Source of the DNA: a virus | Taxonomy: Duplodnaviria; Heunggongvirae; Uroviricota; Caudoviricetes | DNA: 64,000 nucleotides | Strand: one strand, 5' to 3' | Virus record (IMG/VR): IMGVR_UViG_3300043313_000558 | Shown here: in pieces, positions 2,638 through 18,829 of the stretch | How positions within the stretch are numbered: position 1 is the first letter of the stretch | Layout of the letters: the number at the start of each line of letters is the position of its first letter | Program-made: the position numbers and the translations under genes | The notes under the pieces: model-generated | Told to the model about the DNA's origin: nothing | Seen by the model: only the letters and a program-made list of their open reading frames with translations | Databases searched by the model: none

Positions 2638-4584
2638 CTACTTGCCCTTCTTCTTCGGCACGATCTTCTTCTTGGGTCCGACGGTCTTGGCGTTGGCCTG
2701 CTGCCGGGCCTGGGCTTCCTTGAGCTTGCCCAGGAACTTCTGACGGCGCAGGTCGGCGTCCTTGCCCTCCTGATCCCGCTTGAAGTCCTTCTCCTTGCCC
2801 TGCTGGTCGCGCTTGAAGTCGGCTTCCTTGCCCTTCTGGTCCCGCTCGTGGTCGACCTGCTTGAACTTGTTGTCGACCTCCTTGCCCTGAAGATCCAGCT
2901 CCTTGCCCTTCAGGTCCATCTCGTTGGTGGCCTGAGCGTTGGGGTCCTGGGCAGCCAGCGCCTGCATGTCGGCCTGGTGCTGCACCTCCATCGCCTGCTG
3001 CTGCTCCATCTGCGCCTGCTGGGAGCCCATCACCTCCGGGTCGACAGCGGCCCGTGCCTGCCCGCGAGCCTGGCCCACGGCCTCGTTCTCCATCTGGTCC
3101 TGGTGCGGGCTCTCAGAGGCCATCTGGGCCTGCTCTGGGGTCATCCCGCCTTGGACCATGCCGAACTTCTGGTTGGAGCCCATGAACTCCATCGCGGTCT
3201 GCTGCTGAGCCATCTCGCGCTTGGCCTCCAGCACCTCGTCCGGGATGGCAGGCAGGTGAGCGACCTCGCGCAGGAACTTCTCCATGTCCGGGTCGGGGAA
3301 GAACTGCATGCCCAGCCCGGCCATGGACGTCATGAACCCGGCCAGCTCGGCCAGGTTGGGCGGGTCCACATTGGTCGGACGCAGCTTGGGCAGCTCTTCC
3401 AGCTGCCAGTTGTTCAACTCGAACAGGCGGGGGATGGCGTGCCGGTTGAACACGTCCGCGATGGCCGTGGTGATGGAGTTCAGCGCAGAGCGGAAGATGC
3501 CGGTCTTGTCCACGTGCATCGCGTAGGAGCCGGTGCCCTCGTGGCCGAGCAGCAGGAAGTCGGCCATGGTGACCATCAACATCCGCTGCTCGTAGCGCTG
3601 GATCAGCTCGTTGGTGTTGAAGCTCTTACCGCCTGAGCTGCTCATCAGCTCGAAGCGGAAGAGCTCCTTGCCCTTCTCGTCGTACTCCAGGGGGAGAACA
3701 AGGCCCTCGTGTTCGTCGCGCCGAACGTTTTGGACCATTTTCTTGAAGCTCTTGTAGACCTTGTTCTCGTTGGTTCCCTCGGTCGCCTTCATGTACGAAG
3801 AAGGCAGCATGGCTACCGGCATGCCAGCGAGGTCACGCTCTACCCCGATCGCCTCGAACTCCTCTAGGCGCTTCTTGAAGAACCAGGGTCGGTACGCAGT
3901 ACGCAGGATCGAGGTGCCCTCGGGGTTGCCCTTGTGGATCCCGGTCCTAAAGAGCAGCGAGCGCTCGATCGGGATGACGCAGGTCTTGTAGTACGGGGGC
4001 GGGATCTGCACATAGGCCTTCACCCCTCCGCTCTCGTCGAAGACCCAGCGCAGGTGGGTCTCCTGAGCACGGATCGGGATCTTCCGCCAGCCGATCCGAC
4101 CGTCGGTGTACCGGCTGCGCTTCTTGGGGTCCTTCTCCTGCGGGCCGACCCGCTTCTTGTAGACGATCTCGTGCCAGGAGAAGCCGTAGACCAGCATCGA
4201 GAGGATCTCGGAGATCATGTCGTCCCAGGTGTGCGACATGTCCTCCATGCACTCTTCGACGAACTGGACCGCATCCGAGCTCTCCGGGGAGTTGTCGTCC
4301 CCGACCACGGTCCACTCGACCTGCCGGATCAGCTTCTCGATGGAGAACAGCATCGCCCCGATGATCGGGTCGTTCAGGGCCATCTCGCGGAACACCGCGA
4401 TGGCCTTGCGGCCGCGTAGCGCAGGCAGGAACTCCTCGTCGATCATCCCCGCAGCGCGCTTGACCCCGGTGACCCCGATCTCGGTCAGTGGGGAGACCCG
4501 AGTCGGCGCGGAATCCAGGTCGATGGTCAGGTCGTCGTAACGGGAGATGTCCCCGTAACGACCTTGGCCGGACGCGATGGTCAT
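2638..4584 (-). CDS. portal-like protein (648 aa) with highly charged repetitive C-terminal tail
   Basis: size, position downstream of terL in the transcription direction, acidic core and C-terminal D/K/E repeat region (DLKGKELDLQGKEVD..KRDQQGKEKDFKRDQEGKD) typical of portal barrel extensions; RBS acaggagg upstream; assignment is by inference only. Confidence 0.4.
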   Translation of the reverse strand: MTIASGQGRYGDISRYDDLTIDLDSAPTRVSPLTEIGVTGVKRAAGMIDEEFLPALRGRKAIAVFREMALNDPIIGAMLFSIEKLIRQVEWTVVGDDNSPESSDAVQFVEECMEDMSHTWDDMISEILSMLVYGFSWHEIVYKKRVGPQEKDPKKRSRYTDGRIGWRKIPIRAQETHLRWVFDESGGVKAYVQIPPPYYKTCVIPIERSLLFRTGIHKGNPEGTSILRTAYRPWFFKKRLEEFEAIGVERDLAGMPVAMLPSSYMKATEGTNENKVYKSFKKMVQNVRRDEHEGLVLPLEYDEKGKELFRFELMSSSGGKSFNTNELIQRYEQRMLMVTMADFLLLGHEGTGSYAMHVDKTGIFRSALNSITTAIADVFNRHAIPRLFELNNWQLEELPKLRPTNVDPPNLAELAGFMTSMAGLGMQFFPDPDMEKFLREVAHLPAIPDEVLEAKREMAQQQTAMEFMGSNQKFGMVQGGMTPEQAQMASESPHQDQMENEAVGQARGQARAAVDPEVMGSQQAQMEQQQAMEVQHQADMQALAAQDPNAQATNEMDLKGKELDLQGKEVDNKFKQVDHERDQKGKEADFKRDQQGKEKDFKRDQEGKDADLRRQKFLGKLKEAQARQQANAKTVGPKKKIVPKKKGK

Positions 4585-4689
4585 GAAGCCTCCTGTTCGG
4601 TCCCATTCTCTGACCGCAGTCGAGGGACCTTGCTGGTCTCGATAACCTTCAGGAAAACGAGGTGTGGGGGAAAAGTGGGCAAGGACGTC

Positions 4690-5013
4690 TTACTGCTGCT
4701 GGCTGTTGTCGTCTCCGGGGTGGTTCTGGCCTTCCTGTTCATGGGCTTCGTTCTGATCCCCGCTCTCGCTCTTCGCTGAGCCCTTCACCACCGAGTAGGT
4801 GGTGGTGGTGCCAGCCAGAAAGCCCGCCAGCAGGCCGATCAGGGTGTTGGTGATGTCAGCGATGTAGCGCGACGGGCCTTCCAGGTCGCTGGCCGGGTTG
4901 ATGAAAGCGAACACCCAGGAGACCACCGAGGTGAAGACCAGCCCGGCGCAGATCGTCCCGGCGATCAGGATTACCAGGATGTCCGCGGTAGGCCGGTCTC
5001 GAAAACGAGCCAT
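4690..5013 (-). CDS. 2-TM membrane protein with charged C-terminus (holin-like)
   Basis: ILVILIAGTICAGLVFTSVVSWVFAF and TLIGLLAGFLAG hydrophobic helices followed by an acidic tail. Confidence 0.45.
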   Translation of the reverse strand: MARFRDRPTADILVILIAGTICAGLVFTSVVSWVFAFINPASDLEGPSRYIADITNTLIGLLAGFLAGTTTTYSVVKGSAKSESGDQNEAHEQEGQNHPGDDNSQQQ

Positions 5014-5375
5014 CAGAAGCCAACGATGTCGCTCAGGTTGCGCTCAGATCCAGTTGGCACGCTGATGTAGACCGGAGCAGGATCCATCCCCTCCAGGTCG
5101 AAGGTCACTCGGTACTGCCAGTTCACCGGCTTGATGTCGATGTCGTCGGTGGCCATCAGGGTGATCGTGGCCTCGCCGTCCTCTAGGAAAGCGACCACTG
5201 GCCAGGCCGGGATGATCAGCCCGGCACCGGAGTGGGTCAGGAAGTCGGGCAAGGCCTTGAAGATCACCTTGCCCTGCACCGGGGTGGTCTCCATCTGGTC
5301 GTAGTCGTCCAGGACCAGCGAGTAAAGCTTGATGTGGATGACGCCCAGACCGACGCCGGTTGGTAGTGCAGCCAT
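5013..5375 (-). CDS. fibre-associated protein; paralogue of the N-terminal domain of 8660..9421
   Basis: VIFKALPDFL...LMATDDIDIKPVNWQYRVTFDLEG aligns with VYFTPTAEFL...LVATDNPNLEPVDYTYEVSFDLEQ of the 266-aa ORF. Confidence 0.5.
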   Translation of the reverse strand: MAALPTGVGLGVIHIKLYSLVLDDYDQMETTPVQGKVIFKALPDFLTHSGAGLIIPAWPVVAFLEDGEATITLMATDDIDIKPVNWQYRVTFDLEGMDPAPVYISVPTGSERNLSDIVGF

Positions 5376-5377
5376 GA

Positions 5378-7405
5378 TCAGGTCCCTATGTCTTCGACGA
5401 CGAACTGTCCGGGTGAGGTGGCGCTGCCCTGCATGGTGATCACGCCGGTGCCCGAGGCCCGGGCGACGGAGACCTTGAGGACGTGTGAGCCCGCGGTGAA
5501 CTGGCCGATGTAGGTGGCGGTCATGTTGAAGGCGGTGGTCGCCGGTGCCTGGCTGATCGAGGAGACCAGCGAGGTAGCGCCATCACGCAGGATCAGCTGG
5601 ATTCGGTCACCGGCCACAGTGGTGATGAAGTTGGCCCACACGTTCAGCTTGTACCAGCGACCCGCCACACAGGTGATCGTCGTGGTCAGCCCCGCGATAT
5701 CCACCGGGGTGGTGCTGTTGGCGGTGTTGGCGGTGTTCGCGGTGATCTGGCCCATCCCCATGATCCCCAGCGGACGGTAGTCGACCTCGGCGACCTTGTT
5801 GTCCACGTAGTTCTTGGTGGTGGCGTGGTCGGGGTTGACCGGGTCGGCCATCCCGTAGATCTTCTGGCCGTTCATGTTGAAGCTGACCCCGACGGTGATG
5901 TCGCCCATCCCCGCTGGGTTGTAGTCCAGCTTGGTAGTGCGGATCTCGGTCTTGCTGAACGGGTCGGGCGTGCTGCCCCCACTACCGCCACTGAAGGCCA
6001 CCCAGGCGTTGGTCGTACCACCGACCCAGATGTAGCTCAGCCCGGTGTCGGTCTCGTAGATGATCAGACCGTCCTGGACGAAGGTTGGCCGAGTAGAGCT
6101 GGTCACCGTCCACACGTTGGCGGCGCTGTAGACCCACTTCAGCCCGTCCCAGATCGCCAGGGCACGCTGGTTCTGGTTGTAGTACAGCTGCCCAGCCCCA
6201 CGCGGAGTGGGGAAGGAGAACAGCCCGCCGGTGTCGACATGGGTCTGGCAGCGCCAGGTCTGGGAGTCGGTGCCCAGCGTGGCCACCGGGTCGGTCTGGG
6301 TGAAGATCTTCATGTAGCTGGTGGTGCCAGCCAGCACCTTGACCTTGGCACCCTGGGTGACCTTGGCTGCGGTGTTCGCATCGGTAGCCCGGCTCCAGGC
6401 TCCGGCAGCTGCGACGTAGATCCCGTTGTCGAACGCGTTGGTCTGGTTCTTGACCAGGATCCGTTCGGTGGCGCTGAAGGCGTAGCCGTCGATGGTCGAA
6501 GTGCCGGACAGGGTGATGTTGGCGGTGGTCGCACAGGCGACCGGGGCCAGGTACCGATCCCCGCTGGCGGTGAGCACTGTCCCGTTGATCGTGGCCCCGC
6601 TGGCGGCCAGCTGGGTGAAAGTGGCCGCACCGGCCTGGGTGATCCTGGCGACCTCAGTGCCCGCGTTCTTCCAGGACAGGTCGGTGTACAGGATGTTGGC
6701 CTGGTACTTGTCCACCGTCGGCATCTCGTTGCCGGTCATCGGTCGGTCCAGGGCCCACTCGATCTCGCCCACCTGAGCAGCAGCACCAGGAGGTGCGGTC
6801 AGGGTGAACTCCACCTCGGAGAGCTGGTAGAAGCTGTTGTAGGCCTTCTGGATCAGCTGGTCGGGGCTACGGCGCACCTCGTCGACCGTGTTCAGGGTGT
6901 GCCAGCCCAGCCCATGCGGGGCGTAGTTGCAGTAGACCCGCACGCTGACCGACTCGGTCCAGGACACGTAGTAGTGACTGACGATGAACCAGCCGTAGGG
7001 AAAGCCGTAGAAGAAGCCGTTGAAGTTGACGTTGAGGACCACGTAGTTGTTCGCCGCGATGGTGAAGCCGCCCTCGTAGTCCCCGTCGAAGAACTGGTCG
7101 ACCTGGGCGTTGGACAGAGTGCCGAGCAGGGTCCCGCCGTTGCGGTCGTAGATCTTGGCGGTGACGGTCCAGCGCTCCCGGGCCTTGAACATCGCGTCGT
7201 TGAGCGCGCTTTGGTACAGGTGTCGGCCACCGAACGGGTTGGCGTTCATCACCAGGTCATCGTTGGACAAGGTGGCGTACCAACCGTTGCCGTTGCTGAT
7301 GTAGTGCTTGCCGTCGGTGGTGTTGAAGTAGGTGCTTCCGGCAGGCGCGATGGCAGGCGCGGTGGCATAGCGCTGCGCCCCGGTGATGCCGTATCGCTGC
7401 GGCAT
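5378..7405 (-). CDS. tail fibre protein (675 aa)
   Basis: real start MPQRYGITGAQRYATAPAIAPAGSTYFNTTDG at 7405 (ATGA overlap with upstream stop); the first 163 codons of the listed 838-aa ORF are R/H-rich out-of-context read-through; shares YFNT[AT]D and TKNYVD motifs with 7405..8652. Confidence 0.6.
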   Translation of the reverse strand: MPQRYGITGAQRYATAPAIAPAGSTYFNTTDGKHYISNGNGWYATLSNDDLVMNANPFGGRHLYQSALNDAMFKARERWTVTAKIYDRNGGTLLGTLSNAQVDQFFDGDYEGGFTIAANNYVVLNVNFNGFFYGFPYGWFIVSHYYVSWTESVSVRVYCNYAPHGLGWHTLNTVDEVRRSPDQLIQKAYNSFYQLSEVEFTLTAPPGAAAQVGEIEWALDRPMTGNEMPTVDKYQANILYTDLSWKNAGTEVARITQAGAATFTQLAASGATINGTVLTASGDRYLAPVACATTANITLSGTSTIDGYAFSATERILVKNQTNAFDNGIYVAAAGAWSRATDANTAAKVTQGAKVKVLAGTTSYMKIFTQTDPVATLGTDSQTWRCQTHVDTGGLFSFPTPRGAGQLYYNQNQRALAIWDGLKWVYSAANVWTVTSSTRPTFVQDGLIIYETDTGLSYIWVGGTTNAWVAFSGGSGGSTPDPFSKTEIRTTKLDYNPAGMGDITVGVSFNMNGQKIYGMADPVNPDHATTKNYVDNKVAEVDYRPLGIMGMGQITANTANTANSTTPVDIAGLTTTITCVAGRWYKLNVWANFITTVAGDRIQLILRDGATSLVSSISQAPATTAFNMTATYIGQFTAGSHVLKVSVARASGTGVITMQGSATSPGQFVVEDIGT

Positions 7406-8652
7406 CAGCCCACCACCACGACCCGGTAGCCAGCGCCCAGGTTGGGGCTGTAGCGCAGCACGGCGGTGTTGACCGTGGTGGCATCCCAGTCGACCTCCAC
7501 CGCGGTGTACGGGGATGCCCCGTTGAGCACGGTCAGGGAGATGTCGCGGGTGTTCAGGTTGTGGGTGACCGTCTCCGGGCTTGCTGTTCCGCTCAGGCCT
7601 GCAGCGAACTTGCGAGCTCCAGCTGCAGCAGCGATTGCCGCGTTCATCGAGGTGATCGTCGGGATCACTGCGGTGTCCACGGCCACGGAGTCCGCGGCCA
7701 CGGTGATACCGGTGCCTGCCCCCACGTCGAAGGTGTTGGCTGAAAGGGTAAGGCCAGCACCCCCGACGTAGGTTGCCCCACCGGTACCGAACTGGGCATA
7801 GGTGAGGTTGGTGGTGTCGATGGTGATCGGCAGGTTGGTGGTGAGCACCCAGGCGGTGTCGGCCTGGGTAGAGCCCTCCTGCACGAACACACACATGCCC
7901 GCGATCTCGTTAGCGCTGTCCACGTCGGTGGCCCGGTACCAGGCCCCGGACTGAACCACCCAGATCCCGTTCTGGGAGGCGGTGCTCTGGTTCTTCACCA
8001 GCACCCGGTCCTGCACCACGGTGGTGACCCCGTCGATGGTCAGGAAGCCGCTCAGCGCGGTATTGGCCGTGGTGGCCACCCGCACGGCGTCCTTCCAGGC
8101 CAGGCCGAACACGGTGGCGTCCACATAGTTCTTGGTCGCTGCGTCGCTGGGCACGTTGGGCTCAGCCAGGTTGGTGATCTTCTTGGAGTTGAAGGACACG
8201 TCCACGGACGGCACGGCCAGGGCGCTCAGCGGGATGGTGGAGTGCGCGGACGCATCGTGCGCGGGAGTGCCGTGGGTGTGGTCGCTACGGGAGAGCGAGG
8301 AGGCAGAGCCGTTGGCTGAGGCCAGCCCATAGGTGGTCTCGGCGGTGACCGAGCCGAACGCGGGCATCCCGTGCTTGTGGTCCTCGCGGGCGAAGTTGGC
8401 CCCGGTGCCTACTGTCCCGCCATCACCGATCGCCTGGGTGGTCACGGTGGAGGCCGGGGTTGCTCCAGCACCCGCCTTGGCGGCAGTCCAGATCGGCCCG
8501 GTGGTGTTGGTGCAGCAGTACAGCGTGGCGTCGGCGGTGTTGAAGTAGATCTGCCCCAGGACGGGGCTGGCCGGGGCACTGGACAGGTTCTGCACCTGGG
8601 CTTGGCGCAGCTCGTTCTTGGACAGGTCTACGGCCCCGTAGAAGGTCGCCAT
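7405..8652 (-). CDS. tail fibre protein (415 aa), paralogue of 5378..7405
   Basis: N-terminus ..ASPVLGQIYFNTADATLY and ..SDAATKNYVDATV motifs shared with the neighbouring fibre gene; Ala/Thr/Gly-rich beta-type composition. Confidence 0.6.
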   Translation of the reverse strand: MATFYGAVDLSKNELRQAQVQNLSSAPASPVLGQIYFNTADATLYCCTNTTGPIWTAAKAGAGATPASTVTTQAIGDGGTVGTGANFAREDHKHGMPAFGSVTAETTYGLASANGSASSLSRSDHTHGTPAHDASAHSTIPLSALAVPSVDVSFNSKKITNLAEPNVPSDAATKNYVDATVFGLAWKDAVRVATTANTALSGFLTIDGVTTVVQDRVLVKNQSTASQNGIWVVQSGAWYRATDVDSANEIAGMCVFVQEGSTQADTAWVLTTNLPITIDTTNLTYAQFGTGGATYVGGAGLTLSANTFDVGAGTGITVAADSVAVDTAVIPTITSMNAAIAAAAGARKFAAGLSGTASPETVTHNLNTRDISLTVLNGASPYTAVEVDWDATTVNTAVLRYSPNLGAGYRVVVVG

Positions 8653-8659
8653 GGTGCTC

Positions 8660-9421
8660 CTAGGACAGATAGGCCTCTCCGCCCAGGGAGGCGGAGAAGG
8701 TCAGTCGGATGGTGGAGGCACTCAGGTACTCGACGGTGCCGGGAAAGACCTGTTCCTTCAGGGAGTTGACCACGACCACGGAGGGCTGAAAGGTCAGTGG
8801 GTGGCTGATCGTCCAGGTAGTGGAGGCGCTGACCTGGTAGTGCGTGTAGGAGGAGGTGCCCCCGGCCACTGCGGAGACGGTGATGATCGCCTCGCCAGCA
8901 TCACCGAGGGTGACCAGCACCCCCTCACCACGAAAGTCCAGCAGGGAGGCTGCGGTCAGTACCGTGGTGTTGTCCTCCTGGACCATCACAGACCCACCGA
9001 CTCCGGGTACTCCAGGTGGCCCAGGAGGGCCCTGCACGTACCAGATCCCGTTGGCTGCGGGCACCGGGGAGATGTCGGCCAGCTGCCGGTCACTGCCCTC
9101 GGGAACGTCGATGTGAAAGCTGTCCAGGTGGACCTGCTCCAGGTCAAAGCTGACCTCGTAGGTGTAGTCCACTGGCTCCAGGTTGGGGTTATCGGTGGCG
9201 ACCAGCTCCACCTGGCCATCCCCGTTGGGGTCCAGGTAGGCGCTGTAGGCGTGCACCGGGTAGAGCACGTCGTTGGTCGCATCGCGCAGAAACTCCGCAG
9301 TCGGGGTGAAGTAGACCCGGCCCACCACGGGCTGGATCAGCTGCACCCCATTGACCGCGACGGAGTGGCGTAGCCGTATCCGGACGATCCCGGTGCCCAC
9401 GCCGATCGGGAGATCTGGCAT
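8660..9421 (-). CDS. tail fibre-like protein (~253 aa)
   Basis: internal start MPDLPIGVGTG preferred over the ORF start at 9460; contains GPPGPPGVPG triplet and Ig-like beta-rich C-terminus; N-terminal domain paralogous to 5013..5375. Confidence 0.5.
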   Translation of the reverse strand: MPDLPIGVGTGIVRIRLRHSVAVNGVQLIQPVVGRVYFTPTAEFLRDATNDVLYPVHAYSAYLDPNGDGQVELVATDNPNLEPVDYTYEVSFDLEQVHLDSFHIDVPEGSDRQLADISPVPAANGIWYVQGPPGPPGVPGVGGSVMVQEDNTTVLTAASLLDFRGEGVLVTLGDAGEAIITVSAVAGGTSSYTHYQVSASTTWTISHPLTFQPSVVVVNSLKEQVFPGTVEYLSASTIRLTFSASLGGEAYLS

Positions 9422-9463
9422 GTCCTCAGTCTCCCAGCGCACGCACCTGACCCTGAGCACAGC

Positions 9464-9499
9464 AAAGCGCCGGGCCCCCCTGCAAAGGCCCGGCGCTTT
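9464..9499 (-). terminator. 13-bp-stem hairpin downstream of the 193-aa gene
   Basis: aaagcgccgggcc / ggcccggcgcttt perfect inverted repeat. Confidence 0.4.
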
Positions 9500-9517
9500 A
9501 GCTGCAAATGCTACTGC

Positions 9518-10099
9518 TTACTTGCGCTTGCCCCGACCACGCGGGTCCACGACCGGAGGCTCGCCCTCGACCGGGATCTCGTTGGGAAGGGTGTTGTCGG
9601 GGTGCTCACCCGGATTGCCACCACCAGAGCCAGGGAGGGTGTTGTCCGGGTGCTCTCCGCCACCGCCGGTCTGCGGGTCGTTGGCCTCGAAGCCCGAGGA
9701 GAGGTCATCGAGGCGCTGCTTGGCGCTGTCGATGGTGGACACCAGGGCCTCGGAGTTCGCGACCTGGGCCTCCAGGGCGGCGTTGAGCTCGGTGTTCTCC
9801 GAGGAAGCCGCTTCGAGGGCGTCACGGGTCTCCTGCAGGTTGCGCTCGGCTTCCTGCCGAACCTGGTCGAGCTCGGTGGTGATCGCCTGCTGCAGGCGGT
9901 TGATGGACTCGTTGAGCGGTGCCATGTACTTCTCCAGTTCTGTAGAAACGTGTCGTTCGATGTGCCGTACCGCGGCCCGGATAGCCCGCAGCGTTTCCTT
10001 GTGCATTGCCTTCATGCCCTGCTGTTCTAGCCAGCTGACCATCCGCTCTCCTTGCTCTTGTAGCCAGTCTCCCAGGGCCTGCACGTCAGCCCTGCGCAT
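9518..10099 (-). CDS. coiled-coil protein with Gly-rich C-terminal tandem repeat; possible fibre assembly/chaperone protein
   Basis: heptad-like ELEKYMAPLNESINRLQQAITTELDQVRQEAERNLQE region; C-terminus GEHPDNTLP repeated twice (48-bp DNA period at 9585-9658). Confidence 0.45.
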   Translation of the reverse strand: MRRADVQALGDWLQEQGERMVSWLEQQGMKAMHKETLRAIRAAVRHIERHVSTELEKYMAPLNESINRLQQAITTELDQVRQEAERNLQETRDALEAASSENTELNAALEAQVANSEALVSTIDSAKQRLDDLSSGFEANDPQTGGGGEHPDNTLPGSGGGNPGEHPDNTLPNEIPVEGEPPVVDPRGRGKRK

Positions 10100-10307
10100 C
10101 CATCAGGACGTGCCCGAAGTCGTGGTCGGCCTTGACCGTGATGATCTGGGAGTCGATCAGCTTGGGCTCCCAGCCACACAGGCAGATGAACGTGGGCTGG
10201 GTGAACAGGCGTTGGTCGTTTGCATCCAGCACGACCGTCTTGACCAGGCCCTGCTCGGTGCAGCCCGACACCAGGCACTGGTAGATGTTCTTCAGGCGCT
10301 TCCTCAT
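10086..10307 (-). CDS. hypothetical 73-aa protein
   Basis: ORF between two fibre-module genes, overlapping the next start; no motif. Confidence 0.3.
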   Translation of the reverse strand: MRKRLKNIYQCLVSGCTEQGLVKTVVLDANDQRLFTQPTFICLCGWEPKLIDSQIITVKADHDFGHVLMDAQG

Positions 10308-10316
10308 GTGCTCCCC

Positions 10317-11576
10317 TTACCTCGTGGCCGCCTTGATGACGGTCCCGCTCAGGTTCTTGATGGTGACCCGGGGGTCATCACAGATGATCTGGCTCTCGCG
10401 GGCCACGAAGATCTCCCGAGGGGCACCACCGAAGGTGTTGTTGTTGCCCCAGAGCAGCACGCCACCGAAGTTGGACTCCAGGCGGGCCAGACCTCGGTTG
10501 CCGCCGAACATGCAGCTGTCCACGGAGATCTCGGTGTTGCCGCTGATCCCCTGGATGCCCTGGCCGCCCTTGAACGAGCAGGCAGTGAAGGCGAAGTTGT
10601 TCGCGCTGCCGTTGAAGCGCACCTGGTAGGACTCGGTGGGGTAGCCGTCCGGGGCATCGAACTCGGTGCCGATGCACCGGGAGTTGTGCCCGTAGGTGAC
10701 CTTGAGCTGGTAGCTCTTGCGCCGCGCACTGATCATCGCGGAGCCGATGACGGACTTGGAGCAGGAGAACTCGATGAAGGGCAGGTCAGCACCCATCCAG
10801 GTGGTGTTGCCGGAGTCCATGAACCCACCACCGAGGAACCACTTGCACTCGGATCCGCCCAGGGTGAGCGGGGTTGCTCCGGACATGGCCTGGAAGTTGT
10901 TGAACCCGCTCATGTCCAGGCCAGTGCCCCAGCCCTTGAAGATGTTGCGCCAGCCCACGAAGGAGCAGTTGTTGAAGTCCCAGTACCACTGCACGTAGTT
11001 GGAGTCGAAGCCCCCAGGAGCCCGAGGCAGGAAGTCCTTGTCACTTCCTGCGCTGAACTGGATGCCCGAGGCCACGAAGTCCCGGCTAACCCCGTTGGCG
11101 GGGTAGCTGTAGCCGGTGTTCTTGTAGAGCACGAACATCGAGGAGCCCGCAGGCCCGGTGTAGGTGATCGTGGGGGCCTTGCCGTACTCGAAGGCCCTGC
11201 CCTGGCTACCACGCCATCTACCAGGCGCAGTGGGGATCTGCACGTTGCAGTAGTGGTTGCGGAAGGCGAACTCCACCTCACCGGTCCAGCCCTGCTTCAT
11301 CTTGTTGGCCAGGTTGGTGAACCGCTCGTTGTCCGAGCTGCCCAGCGAGTCGAACGGGGTGCCGTTGCCGCTGCCCTGGGTGATCGTGCCACCAGAGCCA
11401 GAGCCAGCAGGTCCGGGTGGGCCCATCGGGCCTTCGGGTCCGGGAGGACCTTGTGGACCGGGAGGACCTGCTGGGCCTTGGCTGCCGGTGCCCACAGTGG
11501 GATAGGGCGGTAGGGGGACGAACTGGTCCAGATCGGGATCAAACACCTGCAGGTTGGCCATGCGCTTACCTTTCAT
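10317..11576 (-). CDS. collagen-like repeat + right-handed beta-helix (pectin-lyase-like) tail fibre/tailspike
   Basis: GSQGPAGPPGPQGPPGPEGPMGPPGPAGS Gly-X-Y run; C-terminal repeats with N/G/C-rich beta-helix turns (NNFAFTACSF, NTEISVDSCMFGGN). Confidence 0.6.
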   Translation of the reverse strand: MKGKRMANLQVFDPDLDQFVPLPPYPTVGTGSQGPAGPPGPQGPPGPEGPMGPPGPAGSGSGGTITQGSGNGTPFDSLGSSDNERFTNLANKMKQGWTGEVEFAFRNHYCNVQIPTAPGRWRGSQGRAFEYGKAPTITYTGPAGSSMFVLYKNTGYSYPANGVSRDFVASGIQFSAGSDKDFLPRAPGGFDSNYVQWYWDFNNCSFVGWRNIFKGWGTGLDMSGFNNFQAMSGATPLTLGGSECKWFLGGGFMDSGNTTWMGADLPFIEFSCSKSVIGSAMISARRKSYQLKVTYGHNSRCIGTEFDAPDGYPTESYQVRFNGSANNFAFTACSFKGGQGIQGISGNTEISVDSCMFGGNRGLARLESNFGGVLLWGNNNTFGGAPREIFVARESQIICDDPRVTIKNLSGTVIKAATR

Positions 11577-11590
11577 GGGGGTTGGTAGAG

Positions 11591-12512: not shown

Positions 12513-12583
12513 CTGCTTCTCCTTTAGGTGGGGCTCCGCCAGGCCGCAGGCCCGCATCACGCAACGACCTGGCGGAGGTCTTG

Positions 12584-12975: not shown

Positions 12976-13090
12976 CTGCTACCTACGCTTCCGTAACCTA
13001 CGCAGACGTAACTTTCGGTTGCGTAGGTTTGGTTTGGTGTGGTGGTGTATGCCGAAGCACCACTGCCGAAGCAACCACGCCAGGGGATCA

Positions 13091-13687: not shown

Positions 13688-13763
13688 TCAGGTGTTGCCA
13701 GGTCATCCTTGCGCTTCGCGCTCTTCGGCTTCTTGGTTTCTTTCTTGGAGTCCTTGCCCTTGC

Positions 13764-14821: not shown

Positions 14822-16327
14822 CTAGGTCAGGTTGTAGACGTCCTCGTCAACCTTGTGCACCTCGCCCTCACGCCAGGCCGTACCGGTGGCCAGCTGCTCC
14901 TTGTTCTGCTCGACCTGGTCGGCCATCCAGTTCCGCTCGCTCTTAGGGCTCGCCCAGGGGTTCACCGCCGGGAAGCGGTGCGAGACCAGCTTCCAGGCCA
15001 GTGCGGCGCTGCAGAAGCTGTCCGGGAGGTGGAAGTCCTTACCCCGGCTGTACAGGTCGTCAGTGGACGCGTAGAGGATCTCCCGGTAGAAGGAGCCGAT
15101 CCGGGGTGCAGTGATCTGACCCCGCTCCACCCCGGAGACGAACTCGGAGAGCATGTCGTCACGCTCACGTCCGGCCATCACGAAGTTGCGGACCCGGCTG
15201 TCCATCATGTCGGAGACCACCCGGCCCAGCCCGGTGGCGTCGTGGATGCCCGCCGCGTTGTAGCTCTTGGCCAGCTTGTTGAACCAGCCGACCATGTACG
15301 GGTAGGGCCTGCGCTGCATCCGGATGTAGTACACGCAGCGGATCGGTGCACTGGTCACGTCCCACACGGTGATCACGGTCCAGTCGATCGCCTGAGCCCA
15401 GTCCGCGGCGATCACGTAGTCGGTGTCGGAGCGCGGCTCCTCGTAGAGCACCTGTTCGAAGTCCCGGTCGGCCTTGATCGGCTCAGGGTTGGGCAGCGAG
15501 AACATCCGTTCTACTGCTTCGGAGTCGATCGCACGGTTGCCGATGCTGGGCTCACCGAGCTCGTACTCCACTCGCCAGCGCTCTCGGGACACCTCCAGCT
15601 TCTTCTGCTCGACGAACTCTTCGTCCAGCCAGCCGTCCCGGGCCCACATCGTGTCCTTGTAGCACCACTCGAAGATGGGCAGGCCCTCGTCCTTGAACCG
15701 GTGCATCTCCTTGGCCATGGTGCCGTCGGCGTACTGCAGCGTGGAGCCCATCATGGTCTGCTGCGGGATCCGCGCCCCCACGTGGTTGGGCTGCGGCATC
15801 GGCTGGCCCTTGGCGCTCTCCAGGATCTCGTAGTCCATCTCGTCGATCTCGTCCAGGATCAGTCGAGGTGGGTGAGGACCACGCACCGCCTTCTGGGACG
15901 CGGTCAGTGGGCGGATGATCGCCTTGTTGTGCAGGATCATCTTCTGGATCGCGTCGGTCTTGATCATCGACCGAGGTGCACCGGGGCTGTCCCAGGCCTT
16001 ACGCATGTGCTCCAGGACGTTCTGGGACTGGTTCTCGCTACCACCGACGATGTTGCAGTCGGTGCCCCAGATCACCGCGGTGGTCAGCCCGAGCAGGCTC
16101 ATCATCGCGCTCTTACCGCTCAGGCCTCGCGAGCCCAGGCAGAGCACCTGTGGGCTGCGGGCGAAGAAGCTGTGCGCGAAGGCGTCGAACGGGGCCTGGT
16201 GGTGGGCACAGTGCTTGTCCCGGGGGATGGTCACCCCCCAGAAGGCCTTGACCACCTCGTAGAGCTCACCGTCGTTGTGCGGCGGACGGGTCAGCTGATA
16301 GCTGGGCGGGACGGTGATCGTGCTCAT
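14822..16327 (-). CDS. terminase large subunit
   Basis: Walker A GSRGLSGKS, Walker B LILDEIDEM, and C-terminal RNaseH-like nuclease region with acidic residues (DWAQAIDWTVITVWD, GIHDATGLG). Confidence 0.8.
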   Translation of the reverse strand: MSTITVPPSYQLTRPPHNDGELYEVVKAFWGVTIPRDKHCAHHQAPFDAFAHSFFARSPQVLCLGSRGLSGKSAMMSLLGLTTAVIWGTDCNIVGGSENQSQNVLEHMRKAWDSPGAPRSMIKTDAIQKMILHNKAIIRPLTASQKAVRGPHPPRLILDEIDEMDYEILESAKGQPMPQPNHVGARIPQQTMMGSTLQYADGTMAKEMHRFKDEGLPIFEWCYKDTMWARDGWLDEEFVEQKKLEVSRERWRVEYELGEPSIGNRAIDSEAVERMFSLPNPEPIKADRDFEQVLYEEPRSDTDYVIAADWAQAIDWTVITVWDVTSAPIRCVYYIRMQRRPYPYMVGWFNKLAKSYNAAGIHDATGLGRVVSDMMDSRVRNFVMAGRERDDMLSEFVSGVERGQITAPRIGSFYREILYASTDDLYSRGKDFHLPDSFCSAALAWKLVSHRFPAVNPWASPKSERNWMADQVEQNKEQLATGTAWREGEVHKVDEDVYNLT

Positions 16328-16348: not shown

Positions 16349-17374
16349 TCACACGTACTCGCGCCAGGTGAACTTCAGCCGCCCGCTGGTGGTTCCCTTG
16401 CCGTAGCAGATGTTGTAGTAGCTGCTCGTGGTGGACGTGGTGCCGTACATCATCCCGATGCCCCGGTACTCCCCGGACAAGAAGTTGTTGTGCCAGTCGC
16501 TCTTGAGCGTGATCGTCTTGCCCTCGCCACGGCCCAGGTCCACCGCGTTGTACTCACCGACCACCCGGTTCGACCCCGGCGAGCCGGAGGGCTGGGAGGT
16601 CAGGTCGTGGTGCCCGATCATGATGTTGCCGTCACCGGCGATGCCGTGTGAGGAGGAGGAGCGCTGCACGTAGAGCTCCACCTTGGTCAGGTCGTAGGCG
16701 TTCTTTATGAGGTTGTAGATGGCCGTGCCGTAGAACCAGAACCCCTGGAAGTTATCGCCACTACCTTGGTACACGTAGTTGTTGTCGGTACGCCATCCGT
16801 AAGAGCTGCGGTACGACGCACTGTCGGTGCAGGTGACGTACGCGGTCTTAGTGGTGAGCACCTTACTTGGTGCCGGGGGTAGCGGAGTGGTCGTGGTGTA
16901 CTGAGTCGGCGCGCTCCAGTTCCCGGAGGCATCGCGAGTCCATCCGGTCACGTAGTACTTGGTCCCCGAGCTAAGCGCGGGGGTGACCCGGGTGGTGGTG
17001 GACCCGGGTGCCCCGGTCCAGGACCAGTGCGGCTGGCCATCGGCTTGGGTATTGGTGAAGCTGTTGGCGTCGACCACGCCCGGGTTGGTCGGGTACGCGG
17101 TCTTGGACATCTTCAGGCAGCCACCAGTGACATCGACGTCAGCGGCCAGCTTGACCGTCACTGAGTAGGTCTTGGTGGTGGTGTTGTGTGCTCCAGCGCT
17201 GAAGACGATCACGCCCGGGGGCACCAGGTCGGCGTTGAACCGCTCGGTCCACACCGTCGGGGCGGTCTTCTCGTACAGGTGCACCACCGGCTTCCAGCTG
17301 GTGGCGTCCTTGGTGTAGAGCGGACCGGGCTTCCAGCCGTCTACGGTCTTGATGTAGATCGTGCCGAAGGCCAT
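16349..17374 (-). CDS. tail fibre/receptor-binding-like protein (341 aa)
   Basis: Thr/Ser/Gly-rich beta composition, SWTGAPGSTTTRVTP, YYVTGWTRDASGNWSAPTQYTTTTP repeats. Confidence 0.45.
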   Translation of the reverse strand: MAFGTIYIKTVDGWKPGPLYTKDATSWKPVVHLYEKTAPTVWTERFNADLVPPGVIVFSAGAHNTTTKTYSVTVKLAADVDVTGGCLKMSKTAYPTNPGVVDANSFTNTQADGQPHWSWTGAPGSTTTRVTPALSSGTKYYVTGWTRDASGNWSAPTQYTTTTPLPPAPSKVLTTKTAYVTCTDSASYRSSYGWRTDNNYVYQGSGDNFQGFWFYGTAIYNLIKNAYDLTKVELYVQRSSSSHGIAGDGNIMIGHHDLTSQPSGSPGSNRVVGEYNAVDLGRGEGKTITLKSDWHNNFLSGEYRGIGMMYGTTSTTSSYYNICYGKGTTSGRLKFTWREYV

Positions 17375-17703
17375 CAGGTCGTCTTCACGTACAGGTCACC
17401 CACCGTGCCCAGTGAGGAAGCCGGTGCGGCGGTGCCGCTGTAGACCATCGGCTGGGGCGGGTAGACCCGCTTCCAGGTGGTGCCGTCATAGACCTGGATG
17501 ACCTTGTCGGCAGTGATCCAGGCGACCTCACCGGCCACCGGGGTGGGCCGCTTGGTGGACAGGTCAGCGGACGTGGTGAACCGCTGGACGCTACGCAGCT
17601 CGGCGAAGATGCTGAGCAGGTAGAGCCAGTCGTTCATGTTGTTCATCGGCTCGTTGACGTCCGGGAACGGCCAGGCCTGGTTGGCCGTTGCACGCATGCT
17701 CAT
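17374..17703 (-). CDS. small fibre-associated protein (109 aa)
   Basis: C-terminus VYDGTTWKRV..GDLYVKTT echoes the GTIYIKTVDGWK start of the downstream 341-aa gene. Confidence 0.35.
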   Translation of the reverse strand: MSMRATANQAWPFPDVNEPMNNMNDWLYLLSIFAELRSVQRFTTSADLSTKRPTPVAGEVAWITADKVIQVYDGTTWKRVYPPQPMVYSGTAAPASSLGTVGDLYVKTT

Positions 17704-17711
17704 GAGATCTC

Positions 17712-18446
17712 CTAGGCGGGGTTGGTGCCGCCGATGTCGGCGATCGTGGTGGTCGGGGTAACGATCGATCCGGCCGGGCCGACAGGACCCTGTGGGCCGA
17801 TGTCGCCCTGGATGCCCTGAATGCCCTGGATACCTTGCACACCCTGCTGCCCGGCACCGGTCTTGTTAATCCACAGGTAGCCGGTCACGTTCAGCGTGGC
17901 GGTGTCGTTGTGGCTGACCTTGAAGTTGAGGATGTCGGTGCCCGAGGTGGAGCGCAGCGACAGCGGCAGGCGAATCACGGTGTTGACCAGGCTGTTGCTG
18001 GGGATTATGACCTCCCCGACGTTCACCGAGTTGTAGACGGCCTGGATGGCCCTAAAGCCGGTGCCGTTGACCGAGGTCTGCTTGAAGAAGTGGATCGACA
18101 CTTCGAGGTTGTAGTCCGACCCCGGGGCCAGCACGAAGTTGGTGGTGGAGGCCTGCGCACTGAGTTCATCACGCACCACGGTGCCGAAGCTGATCGTGGT
18201 CCAGGTGGTCGGGTAGTTGCTGGTGACCGTGGACAGCCCGATGCCCTGGGAGGAGGCGGTGAACTGAGAGCTGACCTGCTGCACCCCACCAGTGGGTCCT
18301 GGCACGCCCTGAGGGCCCGCATCGCCCTTCTCCCCCTTGGGGCCGGTAGAACCGGTAGGACCCTGTGGACCGATGCCCTGGATGGTGCCGGTGCGCACGC
18401 TCAGCGTGCCCCCGCTCTCCAGCCGAGTGACCTGTGAGCTGCTCAT
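17712..18446 (-). CDS. collagen-like repeat protein (244 aa), fibre-like
   Basis: GPQGPTGSTGPKGEKGDAGPQGVPGPTG and GVQGIQGIQGIQGDIGPQGPVGPAG Gly-X-Y runs at both ends. Confidence 0.6.
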   Translation of the reverse strand: MSSSQVTRLESGGTLSVRTGTIQGIGPQGPTGSTGPKGEKGDAGPQGVPGPTGGVQQVSSQFTASSQGIGLSTVTSNYPTTWTTISFGTVVRDELSAQASTTNFVLAPGSDYNLEVSIHFFKQTSVNGTGFRAIQAVYNSVNVGEVIIPSNSLVNTVIRLPLSLRSTSGTDILNFKVSHNDTATLNVTGYLWINKTGAGQQGVQGIQGIQGIQGDIGPQGPVGPAGSIVTPTTTIADIGGTNPA

Positions 18447-18829
18447 ACCGACCTCGTGATCCGCTTGTTGACGTACACGTTGCCCTGGACCAGGCGATGG
18501 ATCCTCGTGGCGTTGGTGTCCATGTTGTCCACGTAGGTGATGAACAGGTCGTACTGGTAGACCCCCGACGGGAAGCCCGAGGTGTCCTCGGCCGGGATGG
18601 TCAGCTGGATCAGCCCGGTGTCGGAGTTGTACAGGATGCTCTGGGACCCGGTGGTGTTCCCGTCCGAGGTGGCCAGGGTGTACATGGTGTTGCCGACGTC
18701 GTCGCGGATCTCCATCCGCATCGGGGCGAGCACGGTGTAGGGCTGCTGATCCATCGTCGTCCAGTAGAGCTGAACGCCGTAGTCAGCGCCCTGGTCGATC
18801 TCCAGATCGACGAGCGCAGCAGTACTCAT
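18443..18829 (-). CDS. hypothetical 128-aa beta-rich protein
   Basis: ORF coupled to both neighbours. Confidence 0.35.
   Translation of the reverse strand: MSTAALVDLEIDQGADYGVQLYWTTMDQQPYTVLAPMRMEIRDDVGNTMYTLATSDGNTTGSQSILYNSDTGLIQLTIPAEDTSGFPSGVYQYDLFITYVDNMDTNATRIHRLVQGNVYVNKRITRSV

What the first reader, a model, noticed from the sequence alone, without database searches (positions are those of the whole stretch)
5013..11576. Second fibre cluster with duplicated domains and a collagen plus beta-helix protein
The 415-aa and 675-aa fibres share N-terminal YFNT[AT]D and C-terminal TKNYVD motifs and are recent paralogues. The 120-aa protein (5013..5375) and the N-terminus of the 266-aa ORF (8660..9421) share a ~60-aa domain. 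The 419-aa protein combines a 30-residue collagen triple-helix run with pectin-lyase-like beta-helix repeats. Together with the 16.3-18.8-kb cluster, the phage carries at least seven fibre-like genes. That suggests multiple receptor-binding proteins or a broad or switchable host range.
Basis: seen in the sequence. Interest (0 to 1): 0.55.

Follow-up and report, generated by a model that had tools for sequence, protein, structure and literature searches.

The report
Mosaic phage fibre cassette between terminase and portal
An uncultured ~83-kb high-GC phage with a long non-contractile tail carries a fast-evolving block of mix-and-match fibre and spike genes, most likely for sticking to its host's surface, inserted between two head-assembly genes; the parts are ordinary and only their position is unusual.

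Summary

- **415-aa and 675-aa proteins.** They are not recent paralogues. They share a ~75–100-aa module at 50% amino-acid and about 72% DNA identity, a 35-aa TKNYVD motif placed in a different order, and a weak YFNT hairpin. The rest of the two proteins is unrelated.
- **120-aa protein.** The whole protein (118 aa, 36% identity, E=7e-22), not ~60 aa, matches the N-terminus of the 253-aa protein. This is an N-terminal attachment domain with 1,026 cluster representatives. In a sister phage the same gene continues into collagen plus a 340-aa distal part, so here it is an anchor-only stub.
- **419-aa protein.** It has 10 uninterrupted G-X-Y triplets. A confident AlphaFold model is a right-handed β-helix that matches tailspike depolymerases.
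- **Context.** The phage is a siphovirus whose canonical tail-tip genes lie elsewhere in the genome. Distant relatives have terminase directly next to portal, so this cassette is a lineage-specific insertion. It diverges much faster than the flanking head genes.
- **Switching.** There is no sign of a switch: no long, well-matched inverted repeats and no DGR-like repeats.

It is a new member of a known kind, modular receptor-binding fibres. Arthrobacter cluster AQ phages are a precedent for tail genes upstream of terminase. Whether the fibres attach to the tail or the head is unresolved.

The parts
10317..11576 (-). Collagen-stalked beta-helix protein. It is 419 aa from the ATG at 11576, and more likely 414 aa from the ATG at 11561. 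It has a short conserved N-terminal peptide, then the G-X-Y run at 11397-11486, then a conserved ~350-aa right-handed beta-helix domain at 10320-11369.
   Evidence: Ten G-X-Y triplets. There are 21 homologues with variable stalks, either collagen or acidic coiled coil, and a conserved C-terminal domain. The AlphaFold2 model has pLDDT 83.7. Foldseek matches Kp32gp38, CBA120 TSP3, Sf6/HK620/Dettilon tailspikes and phi29 gp12, and BFVD pectate-lyase-superfamily tail fibres. There is no Pfam hit.
10086..10307 (-). 73-aa Cys-rich small protein of unknown role. It is conserved next to the beta-helix gene.
   Evidence: ORF. It is 89% identical in sister phage L009. Its only family match is a weak DUF7045 hit at E=0.084.
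9518..10099 (-). 193-aa (or 174-aa) coiled-coil protein with two GEHPDNTLP repeats and a basic tail. It is a possible fibre assembly or adaptor factor.
   Evidence: It gives many weak coiled-coil family hits. The repeats are at residues 148 and 164. It is 80% identical in L009.
8660..9421 (-). 253-aa fibre. It has an N-terminal anchor domain (9068-9421), a short collagen run GPPGPPGVPGVGG (8987-9031) and a ~63-aa C-terminal tip domain (8663-8851).
   Evidence: BLASTP against the 120-aa protein gives E=7e-22. PHROG hits are tail fibre/tail protein families 14726 and 15881 at the N-terminus, and 30556 and others at the C-terminus. The AlphaFold2 model is poor, pLDDT 58.
7405..8652 (-). 415-aa fibre. 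It has an N-terminal YFNTAD hairpin region (8482-8652), two R-x-D-H-x-H-G motifs, a TKNYVD motif (8110-8208), the shared module X (7783-8085) and a C-terminal small domain. Residues 179-415 match PDB 9nx3.
   Evidence: phrog_2647 at E=7e-56. 9nx3 at E=1.3e-16 over residues 179-415. An orthologue in L014 is 49-68% identical.
5378..7405 (-). 675-aa multi-domain fibre, translationally coupled to the 415-aa gene (TGATG). Its parts are a YFNTTD hairpin (7271-7405), a rare globular domain (6545-7270), module X (6251-6541), hairpin repeats (5981-6250), a TKNYVD motif (5792-5896) and a C-terminal domain with almost no homologues (5381-5773).
   Evidence: The domain map comes from BLAST coverage of 120 homologues. 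Module X matches the LME-1 tail fibre 9efk and 9nx3. L009 has a 790-aa version with a ~115-aa insertion.
5013..5375 (-). 120-aa anchor-domain-only protein, a stub of a longer fibre gene.
   Evidence: It is 72% identical to residues 1-118 of a 492-aa protein at the same position in L009. That protein continues into collagen plus a ~340-aa distal part. It matches the N-terminus of phrog_14726 tail fibre. The family has 1,026 representatives and the domain is N-terminal in nearly all of the 150 best hits.
4690..5013 (-). 107-aa small membrane protein (candidate holin). It closes the cassette just upstream of the portal gene.
   Evidence: Residues 8-40 form a strong hydrophobic stretch. Relatives L016 and L020 carry a Pfam Phage_holin_2 gene within the corresponding cassette. 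There is no direct family hit.
16349..18829 (-). Second cluster upstream of terminase. It has a 128-aa weakly LtfC-like beta-sandwich protein (18443-18829), a 244-aa protein with two collagen runs (17712-18446), a 109-aa protein (17374-17703) and a 341-aa minor-tail-like protein (16349-17374).
   Evidence: PHROG tail-fibre and minor-tail hits. PF23926 LtfC at E=1.9e-5, 25.6 bits, below the 27-bit cutoff.
14822..16327 (-). Large terminase. It is the upstream boundary of the inserted region.
   Evidence: It has only distant TerL matches. It is 96% identical in L009. In distant relatives it lies directly next to the portal gene.
2638..4584 (-). Portal protein. It is the downstream boundary of the inserted region.
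   Evidence: phrog_113 at E=1e-90. Portal_Mu PF06074.
55217..60570 (-). Canonical tail-tip module downstream of the tape measure gene. It encodes 485-aa, 142-aa (Gp80-like), 310-aa, 724-aa and 121-aa (Gp80-like) proteins, which are candidate docking partners for the remotely encoded fibres.
   Evidence: The gene order is tail tube protein, chaperones, 1942-aa tape measure, then these genes. PF23140 'podophage GP4 fiber I protein gp80' matches at E=4e-11 and E=1e-13.

Best explanation
The region is an accessory host-adhesion cassette of an uncultured ~83-kb high-GC siphovirus. The host is probably an actinobacterium. The cassette sits in a recombination hotspot between the large terminase and portal genes.

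**What it encodes.** It encodes at least four trimeric fibre or spike proteins assembled from exchangeable modules.
1. A collagen-stalked right-handed beta-helix protein. It most likely binds a cell-envelope polysaccharide and perhaps cleaves or modifies it.
2. A short fibre made of an anchor domain, a collagen run and a small tip domain.
3. A 415-aa fibre and a 675-aa fibre that share a widespread ~100-aa module, a TKNYVD motif and a YFNT hairpin.

The cassette also encodes an anchor-only stub of 120 aa, two small accessory proteins and a small membrane protein that is probably the holin.

**Proposed mechanism (inferred).**
- The N-terminal parts dock the fibres onto the virion. There are three kinds: a beta-sandwich anchor domain, a short conserved peptide ahead of collagen, and a hairpin region.
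- The most probable docking site is the tail tip or a collar around it.
- The distal domains make reversible first contacts with surface glycans. This precedes irreversible binding by the canonical tail tip.
- Module exchange and insertions or deletions in the cassette retune host specificity between related phages.

**Shown.** The gene structures, the homologies, the beta-helix fold, the stub relationship, the fast divergence and the lineage-specific insertion.

**Inferred.** Virion association, attachment to the tail, glycan binding or enzymatic activity, and any role in host range.
For: **Virion type and position.** The phage is a siphovirus with a separate canonical tail module. The cassette lies between terminase and portal.

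**Module homologies.**
- Searches give the pairwise matches.
- Module X occurs in more than 140 hit proteins, often in 2-4 tandem copies. Its partners include Collar, Gp53-like_C, YadA_stalk and DUF5907 (confirmed), and Peptidase_S74, SASA, GDSL and Beta_helix (precomputed); the coverage map is.
- Module X also lies in the Legionella phage LME-1 tail fibre, which has been seen by cryo-EM.

**Anchor domain.**
- It has 1,026 cluster representatives and is N-terminal in nearly all of the 150 best hits.
- Its partners include Collagen (19 of 149), Phage_tail_C (9), PTR (4), pectate-lyase and Beta_helix domains (5), K1-lyase_C, GDSL and BppL_N.
- It is present in Arthrobacter phage Amigo gp18, annotated 'minor tail protein'. 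That gene lies upstream of terminase (PMC5513430).

**Beta-helix fold.**. The family keeps 39 invariant positions, including E125, R160, D161, D174, E238, D249, K269, D302, D305, K331 and D396.

**Stub.**

**Fast divergence against conserved flanks.**

**Variable cassette content in relatives.** L014, L016 and L020.

**Insertion.** Terminase is directly adjacent to portal in the more distant relatives.

**Candidate docking proteins.** Two Gp80-like small proteins sit in the tail module. A Gp80-like gene also sits inside the cassette of L016 and L020.
Against: - There is no direct evidence that any of these proteins is in the virion, or where it would sit.
- The phage is known only from metagenomic contigs.
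- The closest solved relative of the 415-aa protein was named 'Capsid decoration protein' by its depositors. phrog_2647 is labelled 'head decoration'.
- The cassette sits inside the head-gene block, not the tail block.
- The anchor-domain model was poor (pLDDT 58) and gave no significant structural match. Its docking partner is therefore unknown.
- The LtfC-like hit for the 128-aa protein is below Pfam's threshold and has no PDB sequence support.
- The beta-helix protein has no sequence-family match. Foldseek TM-scores are modest at 0.3-0.45, and no catalytic site was identified.
- A homologue of the beta-helix protein sits after the lysis genes in an unrelated temperate phage. That leaves room for a role outside the virion.
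Confidence: 0.55

Rival explanations
1. Some or all of these proteins are head or neck fibres. On this reading they are adhesins anchored on the capsid or at the head-tail joint, comparable to phi29 head fibres, T4 Hoc or whiskers, or the head fibres of flagellotropic phage 7-7-1. They would be encoded where head genes are expressed and would increase the encounter rate with the host surface.
For: - The cassette lies between terminase and portal, inside the head-gene block.
- Residues 179-415 of the 415-aa protein match PDB 9nx3, named 'Capsid decoration protein' (E=1.3e-16).
- phrog_2647 is labelled 'head decoration' and matches at E=7e-56.
- Proteins bearing the TKNYVD motif are annotated as capsid decoration in cyanophage PSS2 and in the Myrna and Phabba mycobacteriophages. 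In Phabba the gene lies about 5 kb downstream of the major capsid gene.
Against: - The 9nx3 chain is the C-terminal 242 aa of a 1151-aa 'virion structural protein' of Bixzunavirus phages. That gene sits next to minor tail protein and endolysin genes.
- No capsid protein homologous to a cluster C major capsid protein was found in the PDB. I could not find evidence that the entry shows the chain bound to a capsid, or a paper describing it.
- The same families are annotated 'tail fibre' in other records.
- Module X is part of a tail fibre seen by cryo-EM in LME-1.
- The partners of the anchor domain are tail-tip and tailspike domains.
Confidence: 0.25
2. The collagen and beta-helix protein is not a virion component. 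On this reading it is a soluble or released polysaccharide-degrading enzyme that works with the lysis genes. It would help progeny escape through, or spread in, a capsule or cell-wall glycan layer.
For: - In the unrelated temperate phage L010 the 65%-identical homologue P0005 sits directly after an endolysin-like gene and a holin gene, and before the integrase region.
- In this lineage, holin-type genes are part of the same variable region.
- The conserved part of the family is the beta-helix domain. The stalk is freely exchanged.
Against: - Collagen or coiled-coil trimerising stalks and a conserved short N-terminal peptide are typical of proteins mounted on a particle.
- All the best structural matches are virion tailspikes and tail fibres.
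- No signal peptide or lysis-related domain was detected.
Confidence: 0.12
3. One reading: the 415-aa and 675-aa genes are recent tandem duplicates, and the fibre set gives a switchable host range.
For: The two genes are adjacent and translationally coupled (TGATG). They share three motif or module matches.
Against: - The shared parts are about 50% identical in amino acids and 72% in DNA, and they cover only about 110-135 of 415 residues.
- The order of the shared parts differs between the two proteins.
- The pair was already separate genes in the distant relative L014.
- Between 4.5 and 19 kb there is no inverted repeat longer than 30 nt. The longest are only about 70% complementary and the best-matched arms are 18-21 nt at about 90%. 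There is no long near-identical direct repeat of the kind a diversity-generating retroelement needs.
Confidence: 0.04

Closest known systems
Arthrobacter phage Amigo (cluster AQ) gp18/gp19, 'minor tail proteins' upstream of the large terminase (Klyczek et al. 2017, PMC5513430)
   Same: Both are siphoviruses of an actinobacterial host with large predicted tail genes encoded upstream of terminase, away from the canonical tail module. Amigo gp18 carries the same N-terminal anchor domain, followed by a collagen-like run (36% identity over 126 aa, E=5e-7).
   Different: In Amigo the two genes lie before terminase only, and terminase is adjacent to portal. Here a second, larger cassette of about 6.9 kb of fibre genes, within a 10.2-kb terminase-portal gap, is inserted between terminase and portal. 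Otherwise the genomes are unrelated, with no DNA match and only distant terminase matches.
Bixzunavirus (cluster C mycobacteriophage) 1151-aa virion structural protein gp242, C-terminal 242 aa = PDB 9nx3 'Capsid decoration protein'; PHROG 2647/2824
   Same: Residues 179-415 of the 415-aa protein align end to end with the 242-aa chain, covering module X plus the C-terminal small domain (E=1.3e-16). phrog_2647 matches at E=7e-56.
   Different: The N-terminal 180 aa here have no counterpart in the solved fragment. These are the hairpin, the two H-x-H motifs and TKNYVD. The mycobacteriophage protein is 1151 aa, belongs to a myovirus and is encoded beside minor tail genes. Its location on the particle could not be verified here.
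Legionella phage LME-1 tail fibre orf22 (PDB 9efk; PMC12407071)
   Same: Module X (675:291-384) matches residues 282-382 of this tail fibre, which has been visualised by cryo-EM (E=2.3e-7).
   Different: LME-1 is a T7-like podovirus of a Gram-negative host. Only the ~100-aa module is shared.
Right-handed beta-helix tailspikes and depolymerases (Klebsiella phage Kp32gp38 9qrm, CBA120 TSP3, Sf6, HK620 and Dettilon tailspikes, phi29 gp12)
   Same: The fold of the C-terminal ~350 aa of the 414/419-aa protein matches (Foldseek E=9e-5 to 1e-3, probability ~1.0). The protein has a trimerising stalk ahead of the beta-helix.
   Different: Sequence identity is 8-14% and TM-scores are 0.3-0.45. Pfam Beta_helix and Pectate_lyase models do not match. 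The stalk is collagen rather than a globular particle-binding domain. No catalytic residues were identified.
T5-like phage DT57C lateral tail fibre attachment (LtfC collar plus LtfA; PMC10713586)
   Same: This is a conceptual model. A small beta-sandwich protein forms a ring around the tail tip, and fibres dock by adding short N-terminal strands to its sheets. The 128-aa protein at the head of the second cluster gives a weak LtfC-like Pfam hit. The collagen fibres here have short N-terminal peptides with predicted strands.
   Different: The Pfam hit scores 25.6 bits, below the 27-bit threshold. There is no sequence match to any PDB chain. This is a lead, not a membership.

Membership tests
Collagen-like triple-helix repeat proteins | An uninterrupted run of G-X-Y triplets, proline-rich, long enough to form a triple helix | tested here: met
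   There are 10 consecutive triplets, GSQ GPA GPP GPQ GPP GPE GPM GPP GPA GSG. The 253-aa protein has a shorter run, and the 244-aa protein has two runs of 9-10 triplets.
Collagen-like triple-helix repeat proteins | Match to Pfam PF01391 above threshold | tested here: not met
   hmmscan gave no family at E<=0.1 for the 419-aa protein. Only PHROG tail-fibre families hit the run, and several homologues carry precomputed PF01391.
Pectate-lyase-like right-handed beta-helix (tailspike/depolymerase) | Right-handed parallel beta-helix fold | tested here: met
   The AlphaFold2 model has pLDDT 83.7, with most of the C-terminal domain above 90. All top Foldseek hits in PDB and BFVD are beta-helix tailspikes, epimerases or lyases.
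Pectate-lyase-like right-handed beta-helix (tailspike/depolymerase) | Sequence-family membership (PF12708/PF13229 or similar) | tested here: not met
   There is no Pfam hit at E<=0.1. PHROG hits cover only the collagen region.
Pectate-lyase-like right-handed beta-helix (tailspike/depolymerase) | Catalytic acidic residues in a groove, and glycan-degrading activity | not testable with these tools
   Invariant D, E, R and K positions exist in the family. Their spatial clustering could not be inspected and activity needs an assay.
Phage tail fibre / receptor-binding protein | Homology to proteins experimentally located in a tail fibre | tested here: met
   Module X matches the LME-1 tail fibre 9efk. 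The partners of the anchor domain include Phage_tail_C and BppL_N.
Phage tail fibre / receptor-binding protein | Gene located in the tail module downstream of the tape measure, Dit and Tal genes | tested here: not met
   The canonical tail module is at 55.2-60.6 kb. The fibre cassette lies between terminase and portal.
Phage tail fibre / receptor-binding protein | Physical presence on the tail, and binding to a host receptor | not testable with these tools
   The phage is known only from metagenomes.
Capsid decoration / head fibre proteins | Homology to a protein shown bound to a capsid lattice | tested here: inconclusive
   9nx3 is named 'Capsid decoration protein'. It is a C-terminal fragment of a 1151-aa protein. 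No capsid protein homologous to a cluster C major capsid protein was found in the PDB, and no describing paper was found.
Recent tandem paralogues (415 aa and 675 aa) | High identity at DNA level over most of the gene length | tested here: not met
   DNA identity is 72% over 98 nt and 47 nt only. Amino-acid identity is 50% over 74 aa, and the rest is unrelated.
Switchable tail-fibre systems (invertible segments, diversity-generating retroelements) | Flanking inverted repeats, or a template/variable repeat pair near the fibre C-terminus | tested here: not met
   The longest inverted repeats are 30 nt or shorter at about 70% complementarity, and the best-matched arms are 18-21 nt at about 90%. 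There are no long near-identical direct repeats. A recombinase or reverse transcriptase was not searched for systematically.
LtfC-type fibre-attachment collar (128-aa protein) | Match to PF23926 above the gathering threshold | tested here: not met
   The score is 25.6 bits against a cutoff of 27, E=1.9e-5. There is no PDB sequence hit.

The most novel reading that the evidence does not exclude
The terminase-portal cassette may encode capsid- or neck-anchored adhesin fibres of an actinobacterial siphovirus, rather than tail fibres. The anchor-only 120-aa protein would then be a functional plug. It would occupy the fibre docking sites and so tune how many full-length fibres each particle carries. 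Stand-alone anchor proteins of 111-136 aa recur among the family representatives, which makes this a testable general idea.
Probability: 0.15. Interest if true: 0.55.

Novelty: new member of a known kind. Interest (0 to 1): 0.3.

Why it matters
This is a clean example of how phage host-recognition genes evolve by module exchange at a defined hotspot.

- The same lineage shows terminase next to portal, a 2.6-kb insert, and 10-13-kb fibre and holin cassettes with different contents.
- It also delineates two widespread fibre modules that have no model in the Pfam copy searched here. One is an N-terminal anchor domain with more than 1,000 cluster representatives. The other is a ~100-aa shaft module.
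- It flags conflicting 'capsid decoration' and 'tail fibre' annotations for one protein family.
- None of this changes current understanding. It is mainly useful for annotation and for engineering the host range of actinobacteriophages.

Tried and rejected
- **Megablast of the region against 50,697 phage records.** No match.
- **tblastn of terminase.** Only 24% identity to Thermus and Microcystis phages.
- **Pfam on all cassette proteins.** Nothing useful apart from coiled-coil noise.
- **Shared C-terminal tip domain in the 253-aa and 415-aa proteins.** By eye the tip domains look alike, but hhalign gave E=0.23, so I do not claim it.
- **AlphaFold2 model of the 253-aa protein, made to identify the anchor fold.**
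  - The accepted run gave pLDDT 58.
  - Foldseek against the PDB then gave nothing below E=0.05.
- **PDB sequence searches.** Searches with the 341-aa, 244-aa and 128-aa proteins and with the 253-aa profile gave nothing beyond collagen.
- **Literature on PDB 9nx3.** Nothing found.
- **Check for a capsid protein in the PDB.** A search with a Myrnavirus capsid protein found none from cluster C phages.
- **Portal scan of 185,579 bacterial genomes for a prophage or host.** No relative found.
- **Exact-match look-up of the 1141-aa ORF.** It failed because the ORF is the C-terminal part of a 1942-aa tape measure gene that runs off the window.
- **Contexts of three other anchor-bearing proteins.** The contigs were too short, or carried no recognisable tail or head genes, to show adjacency.
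- **Consensus promoter and terminator scan.** Nothing above the shuffled expectation.

Full report
**What the window is.**
- All genes in the 64-kb window lie on the minus strand and GC is 62-66%.
- Exact-protein look-ups place the region on metagenomic contigs of 82.8-83.7 kb from several samples. The window is therefore about three quarters of an ~83-kb phage genome.
- There is no nucleotide match in 50,697 phage records. The large terminase is only ~24% identical to its best matches. The lineage is novel.
- The phage is a siphovirus. A tail tube protein (PF25595), two chaperone-sized genes and a 1942-aa tape measure are followed by proteins of 485, 142, 310, 724 and 121 aa, at window 55.2-60.6 kb. 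The 142- and 121-aa proteins match Pfam 'podophage GP4 fiber I protein gp80'.
- The finding's region is elsewhere in the genome. In transcription order it runs as follows:
  - the second cluster (128, 244, 109 and 341 aa);
  - the large terminase (14822-16327);
  - about 3 kb of small genes;
  - the cassette (414/419, 73, 193, 253, 415, 675, 120 and 107 aa);
  - the portal (2638-4584; phrog_113 at E=1e-90, Portal_Mu).

**Checking the observation.**
- BLASTP with compositional adjustment shows three matches between the 415- and 675-aa proteins.
  - A 74-aa stretch is 50% identical (E=6e-14).
  - A 35-aa stretch contains TKNYVD (E=2e-5).
  - The YFNT region gives only E=0.014.
- The similarities are real, but they are modules and not whole-gene paralogy.
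  - TKNYVD precedes the shared module in the 415-aa protein and follows it in the 675-aa protein.
  - The DNA of the shared module is only 72% identical.
  - An orthologous gene pair already exists in a distant relative (L014).
- The 120-aa protein aligns over its whole length with the N-terminus of the next fibre (36% identity, E=7e-22). That fibre is 253 aa from the ATG at 9421.
- The collagen run in the 414/419-aa protein is exactly ten G-X-Y triplets.

**The beta-helix protein.**
- Twenty-one homologues share a conserved ~350-aa C-terminal domain with 39 invariant positions. Their N-terminal stalks are swapped between collagen and acidic coiled coils.
- An AlphaFold2 model built on this alignment has mean pLDDT 83.7, with most of the C-terminal domain above 90.
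- Foldseek returns only right-handed beta-helix proteins.
  - From the PDB: Klebsiella depolymerase Kp32gp38, CBA120 TSP3, the Sf6, HK620 and Dettilon tailspikes, phi29 gp12 and alginate epimerases.
  - From BFVD: 'pectate lyase superfamily' tail fibres and tailspikes.
- Sequence-family membership is not met and catalysis is untested.
- A 65%-identical homologue sits after the holin in an unrelated temperate phage. The module is mobile, and a role outside the virion cannot be excluded.

**The shared ~100-aa module ('X').**
- A database search with the 675-aa protein gives 451 hits. Coverage of the 120 listed hits piles up on residues ~281-385.
- The module often occurs in two to four tandem copies per protein.
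- It is combined with Collar, Gp53-like_C, YadA stalk and DUF5907 domains. Precomputed annotations add Peptidase_S74, SASA, GDSL esterase, Beta_helix and Mtd_N.
- It has two solved relatives.
  - One is the tail fibre of Legionella podophage LME-1 (PDB 9efk), seen as a tail fibre by cryo-EM.
  - The other is PDB 9nx3, 'Capsid decoration protein'.
- The 9nx3 chain is identical to the C-terminal 242 aa of a 1151-aa 'virion structural protein' of cluster C mycobacteriophages. That gene is encoded beside minor tail protein and endolysin genes.
- I found no paper on 9nx3 and no capsid protein homologous to a cluster C major capsid protein in the PDB. The 'decoration' label therefore could not be verified.
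- Annotations of the family flip between 'head decoration' and 'tail fibre'.

**The anchor domain and the stub.**
- A profile built from the 120-aa protein and the 253-aa N-terminus finds 1,026 cluster representatives. The domain is N-terminal in nearly all of the 150 best hits, which range from 111 to 967 aa.
- Among 149 of them the downstream partners are Collagen (19), Phage_tail_C (9), phage tail repeat (4), pectate-lyase and Beta_helix domains (5), K1-lyase_C, GDSL and BppL_N.
- This is the signature of a general virion-attachment module for fibres and spikes.
- In the sister phage L009 the gene at the position of the 120-aa gene encodes 492 aa. The first 118 aa are 72% identical, followed by collagen and a ~340-aa distal part.
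- The window's 120-aa gene stops exactly before the collagen would begin. It is therefore an anchor-only stub.
- The anchor fold itself remains unresolved.

**Evolutionary context.**
- Compared with L009, terminase, portal and the downstream genes are 96-100% identical. The cassette genes are 67-91% identical and carry two large indels.
- Other relatives fill the same gap differently. L016 and L020 have an anchor-bearing fibre, a second large protein, a Pfam holin, a Gp80-like protein and, in L016, a 1424-aa protein.
- In six more distant relatives, with 45-59% portal identity, terminase abuts portal. Two intermediate relatives have a 2.6-kb insert. This window has 10.2 kb and L016 has 12.7 kb.
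- The cassette is therefore a lineage-specific, rapidly changing insertion at a hotspot.
- One distant relative (L027) keeps its fibre-like and probable lysis genes upstream of terminase instead.
- Arthrobacter cluster AQ phages are a published precedent. [quoted passage not shown] Amigo gp18 carries the same anchor domain.

**Switching.** Between 4.5 and 19 kb there is no inverted repeat longer than 30 nt, and the longest are only about 70% complementary. There is also no long near-identical direct repeat. Nothing supports an invertible or mutagenic switch.

**Verdict.**
- The best explanation is a modular accessory host-adhesion cassette.
- The fibres most likely mount on the tail tip or on a collar. 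They probably make first contact with envelope glycans, and one member is a probable glycan-binding or glycan-degrading beta-helix spike.
- I give the tail-mounted version 0.55. I give a head- or neck-mounted version 0.25. I give a non-virion role for the beta-helix protein 0.12.
- The components belong to known kinds. The position is uncommon but has a precedent.
- Interest is modest.

Noticed in passing
window 4584-14822 compared with loci L024, L027-L030, L032-L034, L016: The gap between terminase and portal is an insertion hotspot. The two genes are adjacent in distant relatives. The gap is 2.6 kb in two intermediate relatives, 10.2 kb here and 12.7 kb in L016, and its contents differ.
   Followed up: partly
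L001 1830-2339 (equivalent to window ~16327-16349) and L006 1230-1631: One near-identical contig (ENA ERZ27257245) carries an HNH endonuclease gene between the 341-aa gene and terminase. It carries another among the head-tail connector genes. Both are absent from the other contigs, and the first is absent from the window. This looks like a homing-endonuclease polymorphism.
   Followed up: no
window 7405-8652, residues 89-95 and 122-128 of the 415-aa protein: There are two R-x-D-H-x-H-G motifs 33 residues apart (REDHKHG and RSDHTHG). From memory they resemble the metal-binding H-x-H motifs of some phage fibre shafts. This was not tested.
   Followed up: no
window 2638-2976, C-terminal ~113 aa of the portal: The portal ends in a long K/Q/D/E-rich low-complexity tail with repeated 'K-G-K-E-x-D-x-K/R' units. 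It contains 23 K, 14 Q and 13 D in 113 aa.
   Followed up: no
window 9518-10099: The 193-aa coiled-coil protein has two exact GEHPDNTLP repeats at residues 148 and 164 and a basic C-terminal RGRGKRK. Its function is unknown.
   Followed up: no
window 55217-55582 and 58685-59113; L016 10707-11081; L020 6149-6523: Two small proteins in the tail-tip module match Pfam PF23140 (podophage GP4 fiber I protein gp80). In relatives a third copy sits inside the terminase-portal cassette. They may be fibre adaptors linking the two regions.
   Followed up: partly
PDB 9nx3 / locus L012 1187-4642: The PDB chain named 'Capsid decoration protein' is the last 242 aa of a 1151-aa Bixzunavirus virion protein encoded beside minor tail genes. 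The same family is annotated 'head decoration', 'tail fiber' or 'hypothetical' in different records.
   Followed up: partly
window 480-1064 and 1237-2637: A Peptidase_M15_3 (endolysin-like) gene and a 466-aa protein with no family match sit directly after the portal, ahead of the putative capsid gene. Lysis-type genes are thus interleaved with head genes.
   Followed up: no
window 19293-19712: This ORF looks WhiB-like by eye, with four Cys and a G-L-W-A-G motif. That would fit an actinobacterial host. It was not checked with a profile search.
   Followed up: no
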